Source of the DNA: Candidatus Multivoradales bacterium
Lineage (GTDB): Bacteria > Acidobacteriota > Thermoanaerobaculia > Multivoradales > Multivoraceae
Assembly (NCBI GenBank): GCA_965223325.1
Contig: CBDCWI010000002.1
Coordinates: 64,001-128,000 of the forward strand
Reading direction: 5' to 3'
DNA length: 64,000 nt
A model generated the notes under the pieces. The model saw only the letters and a list, made by a program, of their open reading frames with translations. It did not search any database and was not told the origin of the DNA. The position numbers and the translations under genes were made by a program. Below, piece after piece: positions 1 through 19,535 of the stretch (the stretch's first letter is position 1; every line of letters begins with the position of its first letter).

Positions 1-778
1 CTTCTTCCGGCCATTCGAACTCAACGGCCCGTCGCAGGGTGTAGGCGAGAAGGGCAGCGGCGATATAGAGATCTTCGATGAGCCGGAATGGTTTGACTCC
101 CGCCAGCCAACCGTCGCCATCCCAGACCTCCTCTGTTTGGACTTCGACCCCGTCGAGGGTGATGATGGCGTGCTCGATCTCGGGTTGTACGGCATGGTCT
201 GAGTCAGAGTCCCGAGAGTCGGAGTCCATGGGCGTGATGTCGATGCCGGAACGGTCCGTCGGCACCACGGCCAGGCGCAGCTGGTTGCGGCCGAACACCC
301 AACCCTCCGTCGCCAGCACCACCAGCCAGTCGGCGGCTGGCGCCAACGTTGCCCAGCGCTTTTCGCCGTCGAGCACCAGTCCGGTCCCGTCGGCGTGGGG
401 TGCGGCCGTCAGGCTGGTCTTGATGGTGCGCGGGTGGGCGCCCCGGTCTTCGGTGGCACACATGGCATAGAGGTCACTCCCAGGCCGCCGTCCCAGCACA
501 CGGCAGATGGCATGTTGGTGGCCGGCGAGGGTGGCCCAGGCGACGCGGTCGGCACTGGCGGCGGCAAGAATCGCCCCGACAACAAGCGGGTCATCACTCG
601 CGGTGTTCGCGGCGGGCTGAAGGGCCCACCAGGCTCGTGGGGCGTCGGGGGCTTCGCGATCAACGAGAGGAGGCGCGCTAGCGGCCGTCCACAGACGGGT
701 CAACCAGGTTGCGGCGCCCCGGTCCGTGTCGCTCGGGGAGGAGGGCCTGGGTTCTCGGTTGCTAGTACCCCGTACCAT
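1..778 (-). CDS. Acyl-CoA dehydrogenase-like protein; 3' end runs off the window, 5' end interrupted by the MITE
   Basis: Not in the ORF track. Manual translation is open from ATG 778 to base 1: ...AWATLAGHQHAI...YAMCATEDRGAHPRTIKT...LDGEKRWATLAPAADWLVVLA...DGDGWLAGVKPFRLIEDLY..., resembling the ACAD middle domain. The ancestral start appears to be ATG at 931-929. Confidence 0.7.
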   Translation of the reverse strand, partial: MVRGTSNREPRPSSPSDTDRGAATWLTRLWTAASAPPLVDREAPDAPRAWWALQPAANTASDDPLVVGAILAAASADRVAWATLAGHQHAICRVLGRRPGSDLYAMCATEDRGAHPRTIKTSLTAAPHADGTGLVLDGEKRWATLAPAADWLVVLATEGWVFGRNQLRLAVVPTDRSGIDITPMDSDSRDSDSDHAVQPEIEHAIITLDGVEVQTEEVWDGDGWLAGVKPFRLIEDLYIAAALLAYTLRRAVEFEWPEE

Positions 779-927
779 TGGAACGGATAGTGGCTGAGTG
801 GATGATCGTGCTCGATATCAAGGCGTCACGACGCAGGCATATTGGTGATCTGTCTAGGAGTGACAACGCAGAGATCGAGTGCGAGGAACGCTCAGACGCT
901 GTGCGGTTCAATGGTACGGGGTACTAG
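762..927. mobile_element. MITE copy 1 (166 bp including terminal CTAGs)
   Basis: 19-bp perfect terminal inverted repeat CTAGTACCCCGTACCATTG...CAATGGTACGGGGTACTAG; no transposase; second copy at 19370-19535. Confidence 0.9.
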
Positions 928-1045
928 TCATCGGGGCTCCGGAGGGCGGTACTCGCTCGAGTGTTGCATGTGCCAACAAAGCGACGTCCGAGCGCTATCA
1001 TCCTATGATGCTAGGCGTTCCTCTGGGCCTCGAAGTCGCTGCGAG

Positions 1046-2425
1046 ATGACCGCCCACGACAAAGTCTCCGCCCGTTGGTACGTCGCCTGGACCTTGGTTT
1101 GGCTGGTGGCGACCCTGGGCTTCGCGCTGCTGGTCGCCGGCTGCCAGGTCAAGAGTCTGCCGGCTGAAACAAGGGTAGCCAGGGCGAGCGAAGGCCCGGT
1201 GACGATTCTGCTGGTGACCGTCGAGGGGCTCGGTCCGGCGGCGCTCGCCGACCCCAGGGTGATGCCGTTTCTCGTCGACACTGCGGGTGTCCAGCAGTGG
1301 TCGGTGGCAGTCCTGCCGTGCCCTGATCCGCAGGTGGCGATGGCCGGGATCCTCACCGGCGTCGAACCGTGGCGACTCGGCATTGTCGGTCGACCGTCTG
1401 AGTACCTCTCCGAGCACTACAGGACGCTTCCTGAGATTCTCCGAGACCGTGGCTGGCAAACCACGGCGGTGACCGGTTCCGAGGGTCTTGGTAGTCATGG
1501 TCTGGTGCAGGGAATCGAACGTTCCGACCACTACGACGCGCTGCCGGCGATGTTGGAGGCGCTTCTCAAGTTCGATCCCGAGCGGTCGGTCTTTGCCTGG
1601 GCGCATCTGGCAAGGGCTGCGCCGCCGTGGCGCATCGACCGCGACCGTGCGGCGGCCCTCGAGGCAGCCGGCGCCTTGCCGGTGCCCGCCTCGTCGCTGC
1701 CACGTCGGCTGAGGGCGCAGAATCCTGCGACCTCGAAGCAGAGCGTCCGTCGGCTCGAGCACGCCATGTACCTGAACGGTCTGGCGGTCGTCGATGCGCA
1801 GATCCGTGCGATCAGCGAGGCTGGAGAAAGCCGACTTGCGCACCAGGCGGGCATGGATAGCAGCCGACCGGCGCGCCTGGTCGTCGCGGTGGTGGGAACA
1901 CGAGGAGCCGACTTCGGAGCGCACTCCTCGGTTCCCCAGCGCTCGGCAGCCAACGCGGGCATCCTGGCGCGGCGCGAATCCGTCGAGGTGGTTTATGGGT
2001 CTCTGCCTGGCTCGCTGGCGGAGAGCTCCCTGATCGAGACCGGGGTCCGCCGCTCGACGGACGCGGTTTTCCCGTTGCTGCTCGAGGCTGCCGGAGAGTC
2101 AGTACCGCCGCGCGTCCTGGCGGCTTCTCCGTGGCAGCGCTCCGCATGCGTGACCGACGAGGGCGTGCTCGAGGTCGCTGCCCGACGAGGCGGTCTGCGG
2201 GCGGGCCGCCGGGGTCCCGAAGGCCCGGTGTGGTTCGAAGACTGGGACGATGAGACCTTCATCCCGCCAGCCGTTCCCGGTCAGCGGTTCGCGGCCCACC
2301 TCGAGGTTCTCTCGGCACTCGATGCCGCGATTGCGGCTCCCGGGGTCGGGCGGTCGCTCCCTGAGGACACGACGGCCGCAGAAGCTCGCCAACGCATGGT
2401 GGATGCCGCCGTTCGCAACGAGTGA
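1046..2425 (+). CDS. Sulfatase/alkaline-phosphatase superfamily lipoprotein, apparently degenerate
   Basis: Lipobox LVAGC. Segments ILLVTVEGLG, AMAGILTG, TLPEILRDRGWQT, FAWAHL and YLNGLAVVDAQI follow sulfatase motif order, but there is no CxPxR signature. Confidence 0.65.
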   Translation: MTAHDKVSARWYVAWTLVWLVATLGFALLVAGCQVKSLPAETRVARASEGPVTILLVTVEGLGPAALADPRVMPFLVDTAGVQQWSVAVLPCPDPQVAMAGILTGVEPWRLGIVGRPSEYLSEHYRTLPEILRDRGWQTTAVTGSEGLGSHGLVQGIERSDHYDALPAMLEALLKFDPERSVFAWAHLARAAPPWRIDRDRAAALEAAGALPVPASSLPRRLRAQNPATSKQSVRRLEHAMYLNGLAVVDAQIRAISEAGESRLAHQAGMDSSRPARLVVAVVGTRGADFGAHSSVPQRSAANAGILARRESVEVVYGSLPGSLAESSLIETGVRRSTDAVFPLLLEAAGESVPPRVLAASPWQRSACVTDEGVLEVAARRGGLRAGRRGPEGPVWFEDWDDETFIPPAVPGQRFAAHLEVLSALDAAIAAPGVGRSLPEDTTAAEARQRMVDAAVRNE

Positions 2426-19369: not shown

Positions 19370-19535
19370 CTAGTACCCCGTACCATTGAAACGGATAGTG
19401 GCTGGTGGATGATCGTGCTCGAGATCAAGGCGTCACGACGCAGGCATATTGGTGATCTGTCGAGGAGTGATAACACAGAGATCGAGCGCGAGGACCGCGC
19501 AGACGCTGTGCGTTTCAATGGTACGGGGTTACTAG
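19370..19535. mobile_element. MITE copy 2 (166 bp including terminal CTAGs)
   Basis: About 11 differences from copy 1 by manual alignment; TIR CTAGTACCCCGTACCATTGAAACG / CGTTTCAATGGTACGGGGTTACTAG, with one extra T in the right arm. Confidence 0.9.

What the first reader, a model, noticed from the sequence alone, without database searches (positions are those of the whole stretch)
700..945. MITE inserted into codons 2-3 of a gene supplies a new in-frame start codon from its own terminal repeat
Seen in sequence: removing the element and one CTAG rebuilds, on the minus strand, GGAG-CCCCG-ATG ACT AGC AAC CGA... This is a good SD plus MTSNREPR..., in frame with the acyl-CoA dehydrogenase-like ORF. 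With the element present, the original ATG (931) gives only MTSTPYH-stop. The distal TIR reads outward as ATG GTA CGG GGT ACT AGC (ATG at 778), in frame with the rest of the gene. The net insertion is 162 bp, a multiple of 3. The opposite TIR ATG (911, + strand) is also in frame and stop-free into the sulfatase-like gene. Inference: the TIRs carry outward-facing ATGs that can rescue or rewire genes the element hits. The new ATG has no obvious SD, so the gene may instead be silenced.
Basis: partly seen in the sequence, partly recalled or inferred. Interest (0 to 1): 0.8.

Follow-up and report, generated by a model that had tools for sequence, protein, structure and literature searches.

The report
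Hairpin mini-transposon inserted at gene start
A 162-base gene-less jumping element landed in the second and third codons of an enzyme gene, and by chance its end offers a replacement start codon in the right frame; this is a real but probably accidental one-off, not a built-in rescue device.

Summary
Window 762-927 is one of 38 near-full copies of a CTAG-bounded hairpin MITE. It splits codons 2-3 of an acyl-CoA-dehydrogenase-like gene on the minus strand.

- **Effect on the gene:** the old SD and ATG (931) now give only MTSTPYH-stop. The far inverted repeat has an ATG (778) in frame with the intact ORF. The predicted protein differs from the reconstructed original only by Val-Arg-Gly after Met1. 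Public gene calls already use this ATG.
- **General inference not supported:** 25 element ends face a gene start within 300 nt. Eight are in frame, which is chance level. Only 2 are in frame and open, and both belong to this copy.
- **ATG not conserved:** the ATG-bearing repeat occurs only in this genome among 201 genomes of the order searched. Only 7 of 94 ends of related elements carry an open outward ATG.
- **Where copies sit:** 24 of 38 lie exactly on TAG stop codons, and 1 of 38 lies inside a coding sequence.
- **Translation doubtful:** ATG 778 has no SD and is buried in the repeat stem (unpaired probability 0.002). In a fold with the 7-codon leftover ORF held open, this rises to 0.63.
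- **Not obtainable:** no empty allele and no RNA data were found.

This scan had already noted the wider element superfamily on other DNA.

The parts
762..927 (+). Hairpin MITE copy, including both flanking CTAGs. Net insertion 162 bp. Belongs to subfamily B and has one private substitution.
762..765 (.). Left CTAG. Either a target-site duplication or part of the terminus; a 4-bp CTAG duplication and a 2-bp TA duplication cannot be told apart.
   Evidence: by my reading, 33 of 38 copies have CTAG at both ends and 5 have a one-base change at one end.
924..927 (.). Right CTAG. Together with 928 it overlaps codons 2-3 (ACT AG.) of the interrupted gene.
766..798 (+). Left inverted-repeat arm. On the minus strand it contains the new ATG (778-776).
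   Evidence: arms 762-798 and 891-927, 37 nt, 84% complementary.
891..923 (+). Right inverted-repeat arm. It contains the plus-strand ATG (911-913) and, on the minus strand, the TGA (910-908) that ends the leftover ORF.
819..869 (+). Apical core, conserved across phyla: CAAGGCG, 4 variable bases, GACGCAGGCATA.., then ..GTC[G/T]AGGAG, 4 variable bases, AACGC. This copy has a private G-to-T change at 855.
937..940 (-). Native Shine-Dalgarno GGAG, 5 nt upstream of the original ATG.
908..931 (-). Leftover 7-codon ORF from the original start codon: ATG 931, MTSTPYH, TGA 910-908.
1..778 (-). Acyl-CoA-dehydrogenase-like ORF read from the repeat's ATG (349 codons in all). Its stop lies outside the window, 270 bases before window position 1.
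701..703 (-). In-frame TTG. An alternative start that would give a protein as long as most homologues.
   Evidence: my codon-score gene caller picked it; most homologues start 3-5 residues before the conserved LxxLL.
1046..2425 (+). Putative lipoprotein with a weak arylsulfatase match. Its own ATG at 1046 is the likely start; ATG 911 in the repeat is merely in frame with it.
19370..19535 (+). Second copy of the same MITE in the window (main subfamily), lying between two divergent genes.

Best explanation
A young copy of a non-autonomous, CTAG-targeting hairpin MITE inserted into the CTAG formed by codons 2-3 (ACT AGC) of an acyl-CoA-dehydrogenase-like gene.

**Shown:**
- The native SD and ATG now translate only a 7-codon leftover ORF that stops in the near repeat.
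- The far repeat happens to contain an ATG, and the net insertion is 162 bp. That ATG is therefore in the gene's frame and would give the original protein with Val-Arg-Gly added after Met1.

**Inferred:**
- The fusion is a by-product of the repeat sequence and the target's phase. It is not a function of the element.
- Transcripts still come from the native promoter and read through the element, which has no terminator-like tail.
- In that mRNA the new AUG is locked in the 20-odd-bp repeat stem. Output is therefore probably reduced and, if it occurs, depends on ribosomes translating the leftover ORF and melting the stem. The UGA of that ORF lies base-paired opposite the new AUG.
For: **Element identity and copies**
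- 38 near-full copies, most 0-4 changes from the consensus.
- This copy shares 8 diagnostic changes with 4 others and has 1 private change, so it is young.

**Target preference**
- 24 of 38 copies sit on a called TAG stop, against 780 of 4785 free CTAG sites (p = 1e-10).
- 1 of 38 lies in a coding sequence, against 2380 of 4785 (p = 2e-10).
- In-silico excision finds no other copy that splits a real gene: 1 of 38 was flagged, and I read that one as a shadow frame opposite a called gene.

**Native start**
- SD and ATG.
- Homologue N-termini.

**Chance-level frames**
- 8 of 25 in frame; 2 of 25 in frame and open, both this copy.
- the repeat is found in 1 of 201 genomes.
- 7 of 94 foreign ends carry an open outward ATG.

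**Structure**
- the mRNA-sense strand folds at -70.3 kcal/mol, z -4.6.
- AUG 778 has an unpaired probability of 0.002, rising to 0.63 when the leftover ORF region is held single-stranded.
- no terminator-like and no sigma-70-like site in 600-1150.

**Initiation next to this element is tolerated**
- an old, decayed copy at contig C2:2490092 sits between the SD and the GTG start of an intact 528-codon FHA-GAF-cyclase gene.
- an SD motif precedes only 1712 of 4802 called starts (36%), against 13% of random 15-mers.
Against: - No expression data exist, so use of ATG 778 is neither shown nor excluded.
- No empty allele was found. The insertion is inferred from the repeats, the flanking CTAGs, the copy number and the restored reading frame, not from a filled/empty pair.
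- The only intragenic copy among 38 is the one that restores an in-frame ATG. The prior chance of that phase was about 0.2-0.37, and the other end is also in frame and open (roughly 1/3 x 0.35). This mildly favours selection for a rescuing insertion over pure accident, but n = 1 and the case was picked because it is in frame.
- The gene calls behind all the counts come from my own crude codon-score caller, and its start positions are approximate.
Confidence: 0.62

Rival explanations
1. Functional rescue by a stop-restart arrangement. The insertion persists because the element's two repeats act together. The native SD-AUG drives the 7-codon ORF, the ribosome melts the repeat stem, and initiation or re-initiation at the exposed AUG 778 makes near-normal amounts of a protein carrying three extra residues.
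For: -: unpaired probability of the AUG goes from 0.002 to 0.63 when the leftover ORF region is held open.
- the UGA (910-908) lies within CAUUGA, opposite CAAUGG in the stem.
- the phase needed had a prior of only about 0.2-0.37, yet the sole intragenic copy has it.
- the ORF is intact, deviating at 5 of 48 otherwise invariant family columns, similar to other divergent members.
- another gene has kept its frame with this element abutting its start codon.
Against: - There is no SD before AUG 778, and 130 nt of structured RNA separate the stop from the restart.
- The copy is young (1 private change), so an intact ORF says little.
- The same-genus genome lacks the gene with this query, so the gene may be dispensable.
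- No RNA or protein data exist.
Confidence: 0.2
2. The gene is silenced, as a fresh pseudogene or a strongly down-regulated gene. The insertion uncoupled the ORF from its SD, and the in-frame ATG is irrelevant.
For: - Read: no SD before ATG 778.
- the AUG is paired in 99.8% of the ensemble.
- intragenic insertions are otherwise purged, which implies they are usually harmful unless the gene is dispensable.
- the gene was not found in the same-genus genome G001.
- the copy is young, so decay would not yet show.
Against: - The frame is kept, and the filled allele is the one seen in contigs from both samples.
- SD-less starts appear common in this genome.
- An old copy at another gene's start has been tolerated.
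Confidence: 0.3
3. Translation now starts further in, at the in-frame TTG (703) or another internal site, so the frame of the repeat's ATG does not matter.
For: -: most homologues begin only 3-5 residues before the conserved LxxLL helix, which is where TTG 703 lies, and the first ~24 residues are not conserved.
- the codon-score caller preferred 703.
- TTG 703 is more accessible than AUG 778 (0.45 against 0.002).
Against: - No SD lies at a suitable distance before TTG 703 (read).
- It would replace a nearly invariant Leu with the initiator Met.
- TTG is the least used start among the called genes (649 of 4802).
Confidence: 0.1
4. One reading: the element family has evolved outward-facing ATGs in its repeats as a device that rescues or rewires genes it hits.
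For: -: both ends of most copies in this genome carry the ATG (20 of the 25 gene-facing ends).
- both ends of this copy are in frame with the neighbouring ORFs.
Against: -: in-frame 8 of 25, which is chance; in frame and open 2 of 25, both from one copy.
- 24 of 38 copies sit at gene 3' ends, where an ATG is useless.
- the repeat is restricted to 1 of 201 genomes.
- 7 of 94 ends in other lineages carry an open outward ATG.
- the plus-strand neighbour is called from its own ATG at 1046, which by my reading is followed by a signal peptide.
Confidence: 0.04

Closest known systems
The unnamed CTAG-targeting hairpin-MITE superfamily with a conserved core, noted earlier by this scan on other genomes (AI notes e1-5271045, e1-2429575, e1-4992939, e1-782552, e1-1452539)
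   Same: - About 165 nt, bounded by CTAG, and often exactly on TAG stop codons.
- Arms that differ between lineages but stay self-complementary.
- An apical core conserved across phyla, folding better on one strand.

All of these were re-found here independently.
   Different: - Those notes link the ends to IS5/IS1182 or IS630 elements. In this genome none of five transposase profiles gives a hit.
- The repeat here is a private variant with an ATG.
- None of the eight summaries that one search returned mentions an insertion in the first codons of a gene.
Correia elements (CREE) of Neisseria
   Same: Short hairpin-forming MITEs that are co-transcribed with neighbouring genes and can change their expression. 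I recall this from own knowledge; PMC3184786 and PMC10969869 were read only as passages.
   Different: Correia elements have other repeats and targets, and documented promoter and processing sites. None of these was shown here (one search found no promoter-like site).
REP2 repeats of Neisseria
   Same: A repeat that supplies a start codon to the gene behind it. [quoted passage not shown]
   Different: Here there is only an ATG, with no RBS and no detectable promoter. It is used at one locus at most, not as a family habit.
Repeat-ORF fusions at gene ends (BOX, RUP and others), and Rickettsia palindromic elements
   Same: Small repeats fused in frame with chromosomal ORFs, including 5' extensions, are described (PMC3184786 and PMC10969869, passages).
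   Different: RPEs are translated through as a peptide insert. This element stops the incoming frame after 7 codons and only offers a restart.
Chunjie MITE of Geobacter uraniireducens
   Same: A hairpin MITE in a group (Geobacter relatives) whose MAGs also hold relatives of this element.
   Different: Chunjie is 178-235 bp and A+T-rich, with 21-bp repeats and 9-bp direct repeats (PMC3184786, passage). It is not the same family.

Membership tests
MITE (non-autonomous inverted-repeat element) | Short, with no transposase or other gene | tested here: met
   166 nt. The frame entering from the gene stops after 7 codons. The only ORFs lying within the element are two 49-codon frames (762-911 minus, 778-927 plus); longer frames listed there merely cross it.
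MITE (non-autonomous inverted-repeat element) | Terminal inverted repeats | tested here: met
   19 of 19 perfect including CTAG; 37-nt arms at 84% complementarity.
MITE (non-autonomous inverted-repeat element) | Flanking direct repeat of the target | tested here: inconclusive
   CTAG lies at both ends in 33 of 38 copies (my reading). Because CTAG is a palindrome, a 4-bp duplication, a TA duplication and no duplication cannot be told apart without an empty site.
MITE (non-autonomous inverted-repeat element) | Many dispersed copies | tested here: met
   38 near-full and 9 partial copies on both contigs.
MITE (non-autonomous inverted-repeat element) | Filled versus empty site showing insertion | tested here: inconclusive
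   - No near-identical locus in 41 related genomes.
- No contig joins 761 to 928 in four runs.
- 0 hits for either flank in the metagenome contigs.
MITE (non-autonomous inverted-repeat element) | Repeats shared with an autonomous insertion sequence | tested here: not met
   - No hit in the own genome (98.2% complete) with PF13358, PF01609, NF033581, NF033551 or NF033545.
- All extra repeat hits are truncated copies.
- 12 IS630-type loci fetched from relatives lack the repeat.

This was not tested beyond those genomes.
IS630/Tc1-mariner-mobilised MITE | TA duplication, classically within CTAG (recalled from own knowledge) | tested here: inconclusive
   Compatible but not distinguishable from a 4-bp duplication. 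No IS630 transposase in the genome.
IS5-group-mobilised MITE | 4-bp duplication of CTAG/YTAR (recalled from own knowledge and from the scan's earlier notes) | tested here: inconclusive
   Compatible. No IS5 or IS1182 transposase in the genome.
Repeats that supply expression signals (REP2-like) | Promoter, ribosome binding site and ATG within the repeat | tested here: not met
   The ATG is present. No SD lies before it (read). No sigma-70-like site in 600-1150. A weak inward-facing match occurs only in the other subfamily.
In-frame coding palindromic elements (RPE-like) | Element read through as part of the host protein | tested here: not met
   The incoming frame stops at TGA 910-908.
Acyl-CoA dehydrogenase family (the interrupted gene) | N-terminal, middle and C-terminal ACAD domains | tested here: inconclusive
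   Only the middle domain PF02770 scores (E 5.5e-10). Homologues of 287-350 aa carry the same single domain.

The most novel reading that the evidence does not exclude
The two inverted repeats of this MITE variant work as a translation-coupled stop-restart cassette. For a CTAG in the nCT-AGn phase, the incoming frame stops at a UGA in one repeat. That UGA is base-paired directly opposite an AUG in the other repeat. Because the net insertion is 162 nt, the AUG is in the same frame. Ribosomes on the short leftover ORF would then unmask the AUG, making 5'-proximal insertions of this variant nearly harmless. The same hairpin belongs to a cross-phylum superfamily whose 50-nt apical core is more conserved than its transposon ends, which hints at an RNA-level role that is still unknown.
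Probability: 0.18. Interest if true: 0.6.

Novelty: new member of a known kind. Interest (0 to 1): 0.3.

Why it matters
**As found.** This is a clean natural example of how a MITE landing in the first codons of a gene can leave the reading frame usable. It also shows how automatic annotation then quietly adopts a transposon-derived start codon: the public 349-aa protein begins in the inverted repeat.

**Annotation.** Start codons that lie inside repeat elements deserve a flag.

**Biology.** The value is modest unless the restart is shown to work. In that case it would be a compact, testable model of structure-gated translational coupling created by a mobile element.

**Wider context.** The element belongs to a CTAG-targeting hairpin family that prefers TAG stop codons and keeps a core conserved across phyla. 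That family is the more interesting object, but this scan had already noted it on other genomes.

Tried and rejected
- **Empty allele.**
  - DNA search of 41 related genomes found only other copies of the element, not the locus.
  - A protein search found orthologues at no more than 51% identity and none in the same-genus genome.
  - The closest protein among 5.8 billion is 46% identical.
  - Both flanks gave 0 hits in the metagenome contigs.
  - Laying four runs showed only the filled allele, and contigs drop rare variants.
- **Expression.** No RNA holder was listed among the sequencing runs. This is no evidence either way.
- **Rfam.** Only chance-level hits: ROSE at E 3.7 and a plant microRNA precursor at E 1.6.
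- **Parent transposase.** See the membership test.
  - The multicopy 1.9-kb repeat encodes a protein that I read by eye as a group II intron reverse transcriptase.
  - The 1.2-kb repeat encodes a protein that I read by eye as a possible tyrosine (Y1) transposase.
  - Neither was scanned against a family library, and neither carries the repeats.
  - Two IS630-like genes in genome G007 have unrelated ends.
- **Chunjie identity.** Rejected.
- **Literature.** No paper in the held library contains the core as text (four spellings, 0 papers). The Chunjie/Geobacter/MITE search gave reviews only. Supplementary files were not opened.
- **Promoter or terminator in or near the element.** None at 600-1150.
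- **Orientation relative to the flanking transcript.** By my reading, about 14 copies are sense and 13 antisense at stop-codon copies, so there is no bias.
- **Orientation relative to replication.** Copies are 29 plus to 9 minus on the contig strands (p = 0.0017). By GC-skew regions they split 24:6 and 5:3, with no clear reversal. This is left unexplained.
- **Decay of the interrupted gene.** Not informative.
Full report
**What is there**

The plus strand carries CTAGTACCCCGTACCATTG at 762-780 and its exact reverse complement at 909-927. The complementary arms extend to 37 nt at 84%.

On the minus strand the sequence reads GGAG, five bases, ATG (931), then MTSTPYH and TGA. The far repeat read outward gives ATG (778) GTA CGG GGT ACT AGC ..., which opens a stop-free ORF of 349 codons running past the window start. 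The element plus one CTAG is 162 bp.

On the plus strand, ATG 911 is in frame and open into the next gene.

**It is a mobile repeat and the assembly is sound**

A blastn search of the element against its own 6.69-Mb, two-contig genome gives 38 near-full and 9 partial copies at 92-100% identity. A second copy lies in the window at 19370-19535.

By my reading, 33 of 38 copies have CTAG at both ends, and sequence beyond the CTAGs is unrelated between copies. Most copies differ from the consensus by 0-4 bases.

This copy belongs to a subfamily of five defined by eight shared substitutions, and it has one private change, so the insertion is recent.

Contigs from runs of two samples of one study extend from each flank into the element (200-791 or 809; 899-1500). 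No contig joins 761 to 928.

**The gene and its original start**

The ORF matches only the acyl-CoA dehydrogenase middle domain (PF02770, E 5.5e-10). It has 18 homologues of 287-350 aa, at best 48% identical.

P0002, the top-scoring homologue and the only one that covers the N-terminal extension (46% identity, 97% coverage), begins MTTSKIPTPEPQD..EAWLTALL. This resembles ..TSNREPRPSSPSD..ATWLTRLW here.

Most other homologues begin only 3-5 residues before the conserved LxxLL, which is where an in-frame TTG (703) lies. The first ~24 residues are therefore dispensable in the family.

Read from ATG 778, the protein would differ from the reconstructed original only by Val-Arg-Gly after Met1. Exactly this 349-aa sequence is already in the public protein collection, so automatic annotation uses the transposon's ATG.

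**Where the family normally sits**

I called genes with a self-trained codon-score method. It gave 4802 genes covering about 88% of the genome, with approximate starts.

CTAG is rare: 4785 sites outside the copies, against about 22,000 expected from base composition. Of these, 780 lie on called TAG stops, 2380 inside coding sequence and 1625 between genes.

| Position | MITE copies (of 38) | Free CTAG sites (of 4785) | p |
|---|---|---|---|
| On a called TAG stop | 24 | 780 | 1e-10 |
| Inside a coding sequence | 1 (this copy) | 2380 | 2e-10 |

- Of the 24 stop-codon copies, 12 have the stop at the left end and 15 at the right. Three have both, where two converging genes share the palindrome.
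- In-silico excision flags one other copy, which I read as a shadow frame opposite a called gene.
- The family thus behaves as a CTAG-targeting element whose intragenic insertions are removed by selection.

One outward frame of the repeat always ends in TAG, so only two frames are open.

Within coding sequences CTAG is CTA-Gnn 1918 times and nCT-AGn 481 times. The phase that meets the ATG therefore had a prior of about 20%, or 44 of 120 within the first 30 nt.

- Of 25 element ends that face a gene start within 300 nt, 20 keep the ATG and 8 are in frame (p = 1.0 against 1/3).
- Only 2 of the 25 are in frame and open, and both belong to this copy.
- With up to two mismatches, the repeat occurs in this genome only among 201 genomes of the order.
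- In 47 related elements from other lineages, 7 of 94 ends have any open outward ATG within 30 nt.
- The plus-strand neighbour has its own ATG at 1046, followed by what I read as a lipoprotein signal peptide. That form, not the one from 911, is the public call.

The general claim is therefore at its own refutation criterion.

**Can ATG 778 be used?**

No SD precedes it (read).

The mRNA-sense strand of 740-950 folds at -70.3 kcal/mol (z -4.6), with the two repeats forming the basal stem. In a 351-nt model transcript the AUG is unpaired with probability 0.002. The figures are 0.56 for AUG 931 and 0.45 for UUG 703.

If the stretch from the native SD to 12 nt past the UGA is held single-stranded, as a ribosome on the leftover ORF would do, the value for AUG 778 rises to 0.63. 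The UGA lies within CAUUGA, opposite CAAUGG in the stem. This geometry follows directly from the palindromic repeat.

No terminator-like or sigma-70-like site lies in 600-1150, so read-through from the native promoter is likely. That is an inference.

Two further observations bear on tolerance of such insertions:
- SD motifs precede only 36% of called starts, against 13% of random 15-mers.
- An old, decayed copy at contig C2:2490092 sits between an AGGA and the GTG start of an intact 528-codon FHA-GAF-cyclase gene.

Initiation right next to this element is therefore tolerated in this organism.

**Weighing the readings**

The parsimonious reading is a recent, accidental insertion whose in-frame ATG is a by-product.

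One point favours selection. The single surviving intragenic copy has the one phase that restores a start (prior 0.2-0.37). Its other end is also in frame and open (roughly 1/3 x 0.35). This favours rescue by a factor of a few, but it rests on one case that was noticed because it is in frame.

The gene may also be dispensable, because it was not found in the same-genus genome.

My probabilities:
- Accident of sequence, not a device: 0.62. This is separate from the three outcomes below, which concern whether the gene is still expressed.
- Restart actually works: about 0.2.
- Gene silenced: about 0.3.
- Internal start used: about 0.1.

**What the element is**

- Related copies occur in other genera: at least 41 matches in G007, 6 in G039, 2 each in G003 and G013, and none in the same-genus G001.
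- Between genomes the arms differ but stay self-complementary. A ~50-nt apex is nearly invariant.
They lie in MAGs labelled Thermoanaerobaculia/Acidobacteriota, Geobacteraceae/Desulfuromonadales and Gemmatimonadota.
- Of these, 47 yielded a complete CTAG-to-CTAG element. The 22 non-redundant ones are 162-168 nt long.
- An alignment of 24 representatives gives one long hairpin of 58 pairs. Of these, 43 show compensatory changes, and there are many G-U pairs on the plus strand.
- The plus strand folds far better than the minus strand: -114.6 kcal/mol (z -10.1) against -70.3.
- Rfam has no match.
- The literature library has no paper with the core as text.
- It is not Chunjie.

This scan's earlier AI notes describe the same superfamily on other genomes. 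I re-derived its main features independently here. I could not confirm any parent transposase: five profiles gave no hit in this 98.2%-complete genome.

**Compared with what is known**

Fusions of small repeats with the 5' or 3' ends of genes, and a repeat (REP2) that brings a promoter, RBS and ATG, are described in reviews that I read as passages (PMC3184786 and PMC10969869).

This case is a new instance of that kind. It has a neat stop-opposite-start geometry but no evidence of function.

**Limits**

- All gene-context counts rest on my own gene caller.
- There are no expression data.
- There is no empty site.
- The transposase is unknown.
- Supplementary files of the papers were not opened.

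Noticed in passing
window 819-869, and loci L038-L153: The element's ~50-nt apex is conserved across MAGs of three phyla while its arms covary. The plus strand folds much better than the minus strand. There is no Rfam match and the role is unknown. This scan noted it earlier on other genomes.
   Followed up: partly
G000:C2:2490092-2490286 (locus L025:1693-1887): An old, decayed copy with mutated ends and a 27-nt insert lies with its CTAG overlapping the GTG start of an intact FHA-GAF-adenylate-cyclase gene. It separates that gene from its AGGA ribosome binding site.
   Followed up: partly
G000:C2:630555, C2:997482 and C2:2196140 (outside the window): At three copies, both flanking converging genes end in the two CTAGs. 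Before insertion the two genes must have shared one palindromic CTAG as the stop codon on both strands.
   Followed up: no
whole genome G000: Copies are oriented 29 plus to 9 minus on the contig strands (p = 0.0017). Splitting by GC-skew region gives 24:6 and 5:3, which shows no clear link to replication direction.
   Followed up: partly
G000:C2:2902343-2902427: An 85-nt deletion derivative that is 100% identical to both ends of the finding's copy (positions 1-39 and 116-166). Together with the 97.6-98.8% identical sister copies, it suggests recent activity although no transposase was found.
   Followed up: no
window 19386-19413: The main-subfamily copy has a sigma-70-like match (TTGAAA, 16 nt, GATGAT; 9 of 12) that reads inward on the strongly folding strand. 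By my count the finding's copy scores 8 of 12. This is a weak lead for an element-borne transcript.
   Followed up: no
G000:C1:63300-65400 (L023) and at least 13 other sites: A ~1.9-kb repeat, 98-100% identical in about 14 copies, encodes a 521-aa protein. I read it by eye as a group II intron reverse transcriptase/maturase; it was not scanned against a family library.
   Followed up: partly
G000:C1:205050-206400 (L024) and three other sites: A ~1.2-kb repeat at 91-94% identity encodes a 335-aa protein with an HHH motif that looks like a tyrosine (Y1, REP-associated?) transposase. This is read by eye only.
   Followed up: no
G000:C1:1-60543 and C2:1-50264: The first ~60 kb of contig 1 and the first ~50 kb of contig 2 are inverted near-copies (93-100% identity). 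C1:1-9635 is also repeated exactly at C1:46710-56344. This is either a large duplication or an assembly effect, and it lies just outside the window.
   Followed up: no
L057, L118, L145 (foreign copies): Some copies in another genome carry the same ~22-nt insert inside the conserved core, as if a still smaller element nests there.
   Followed up: no
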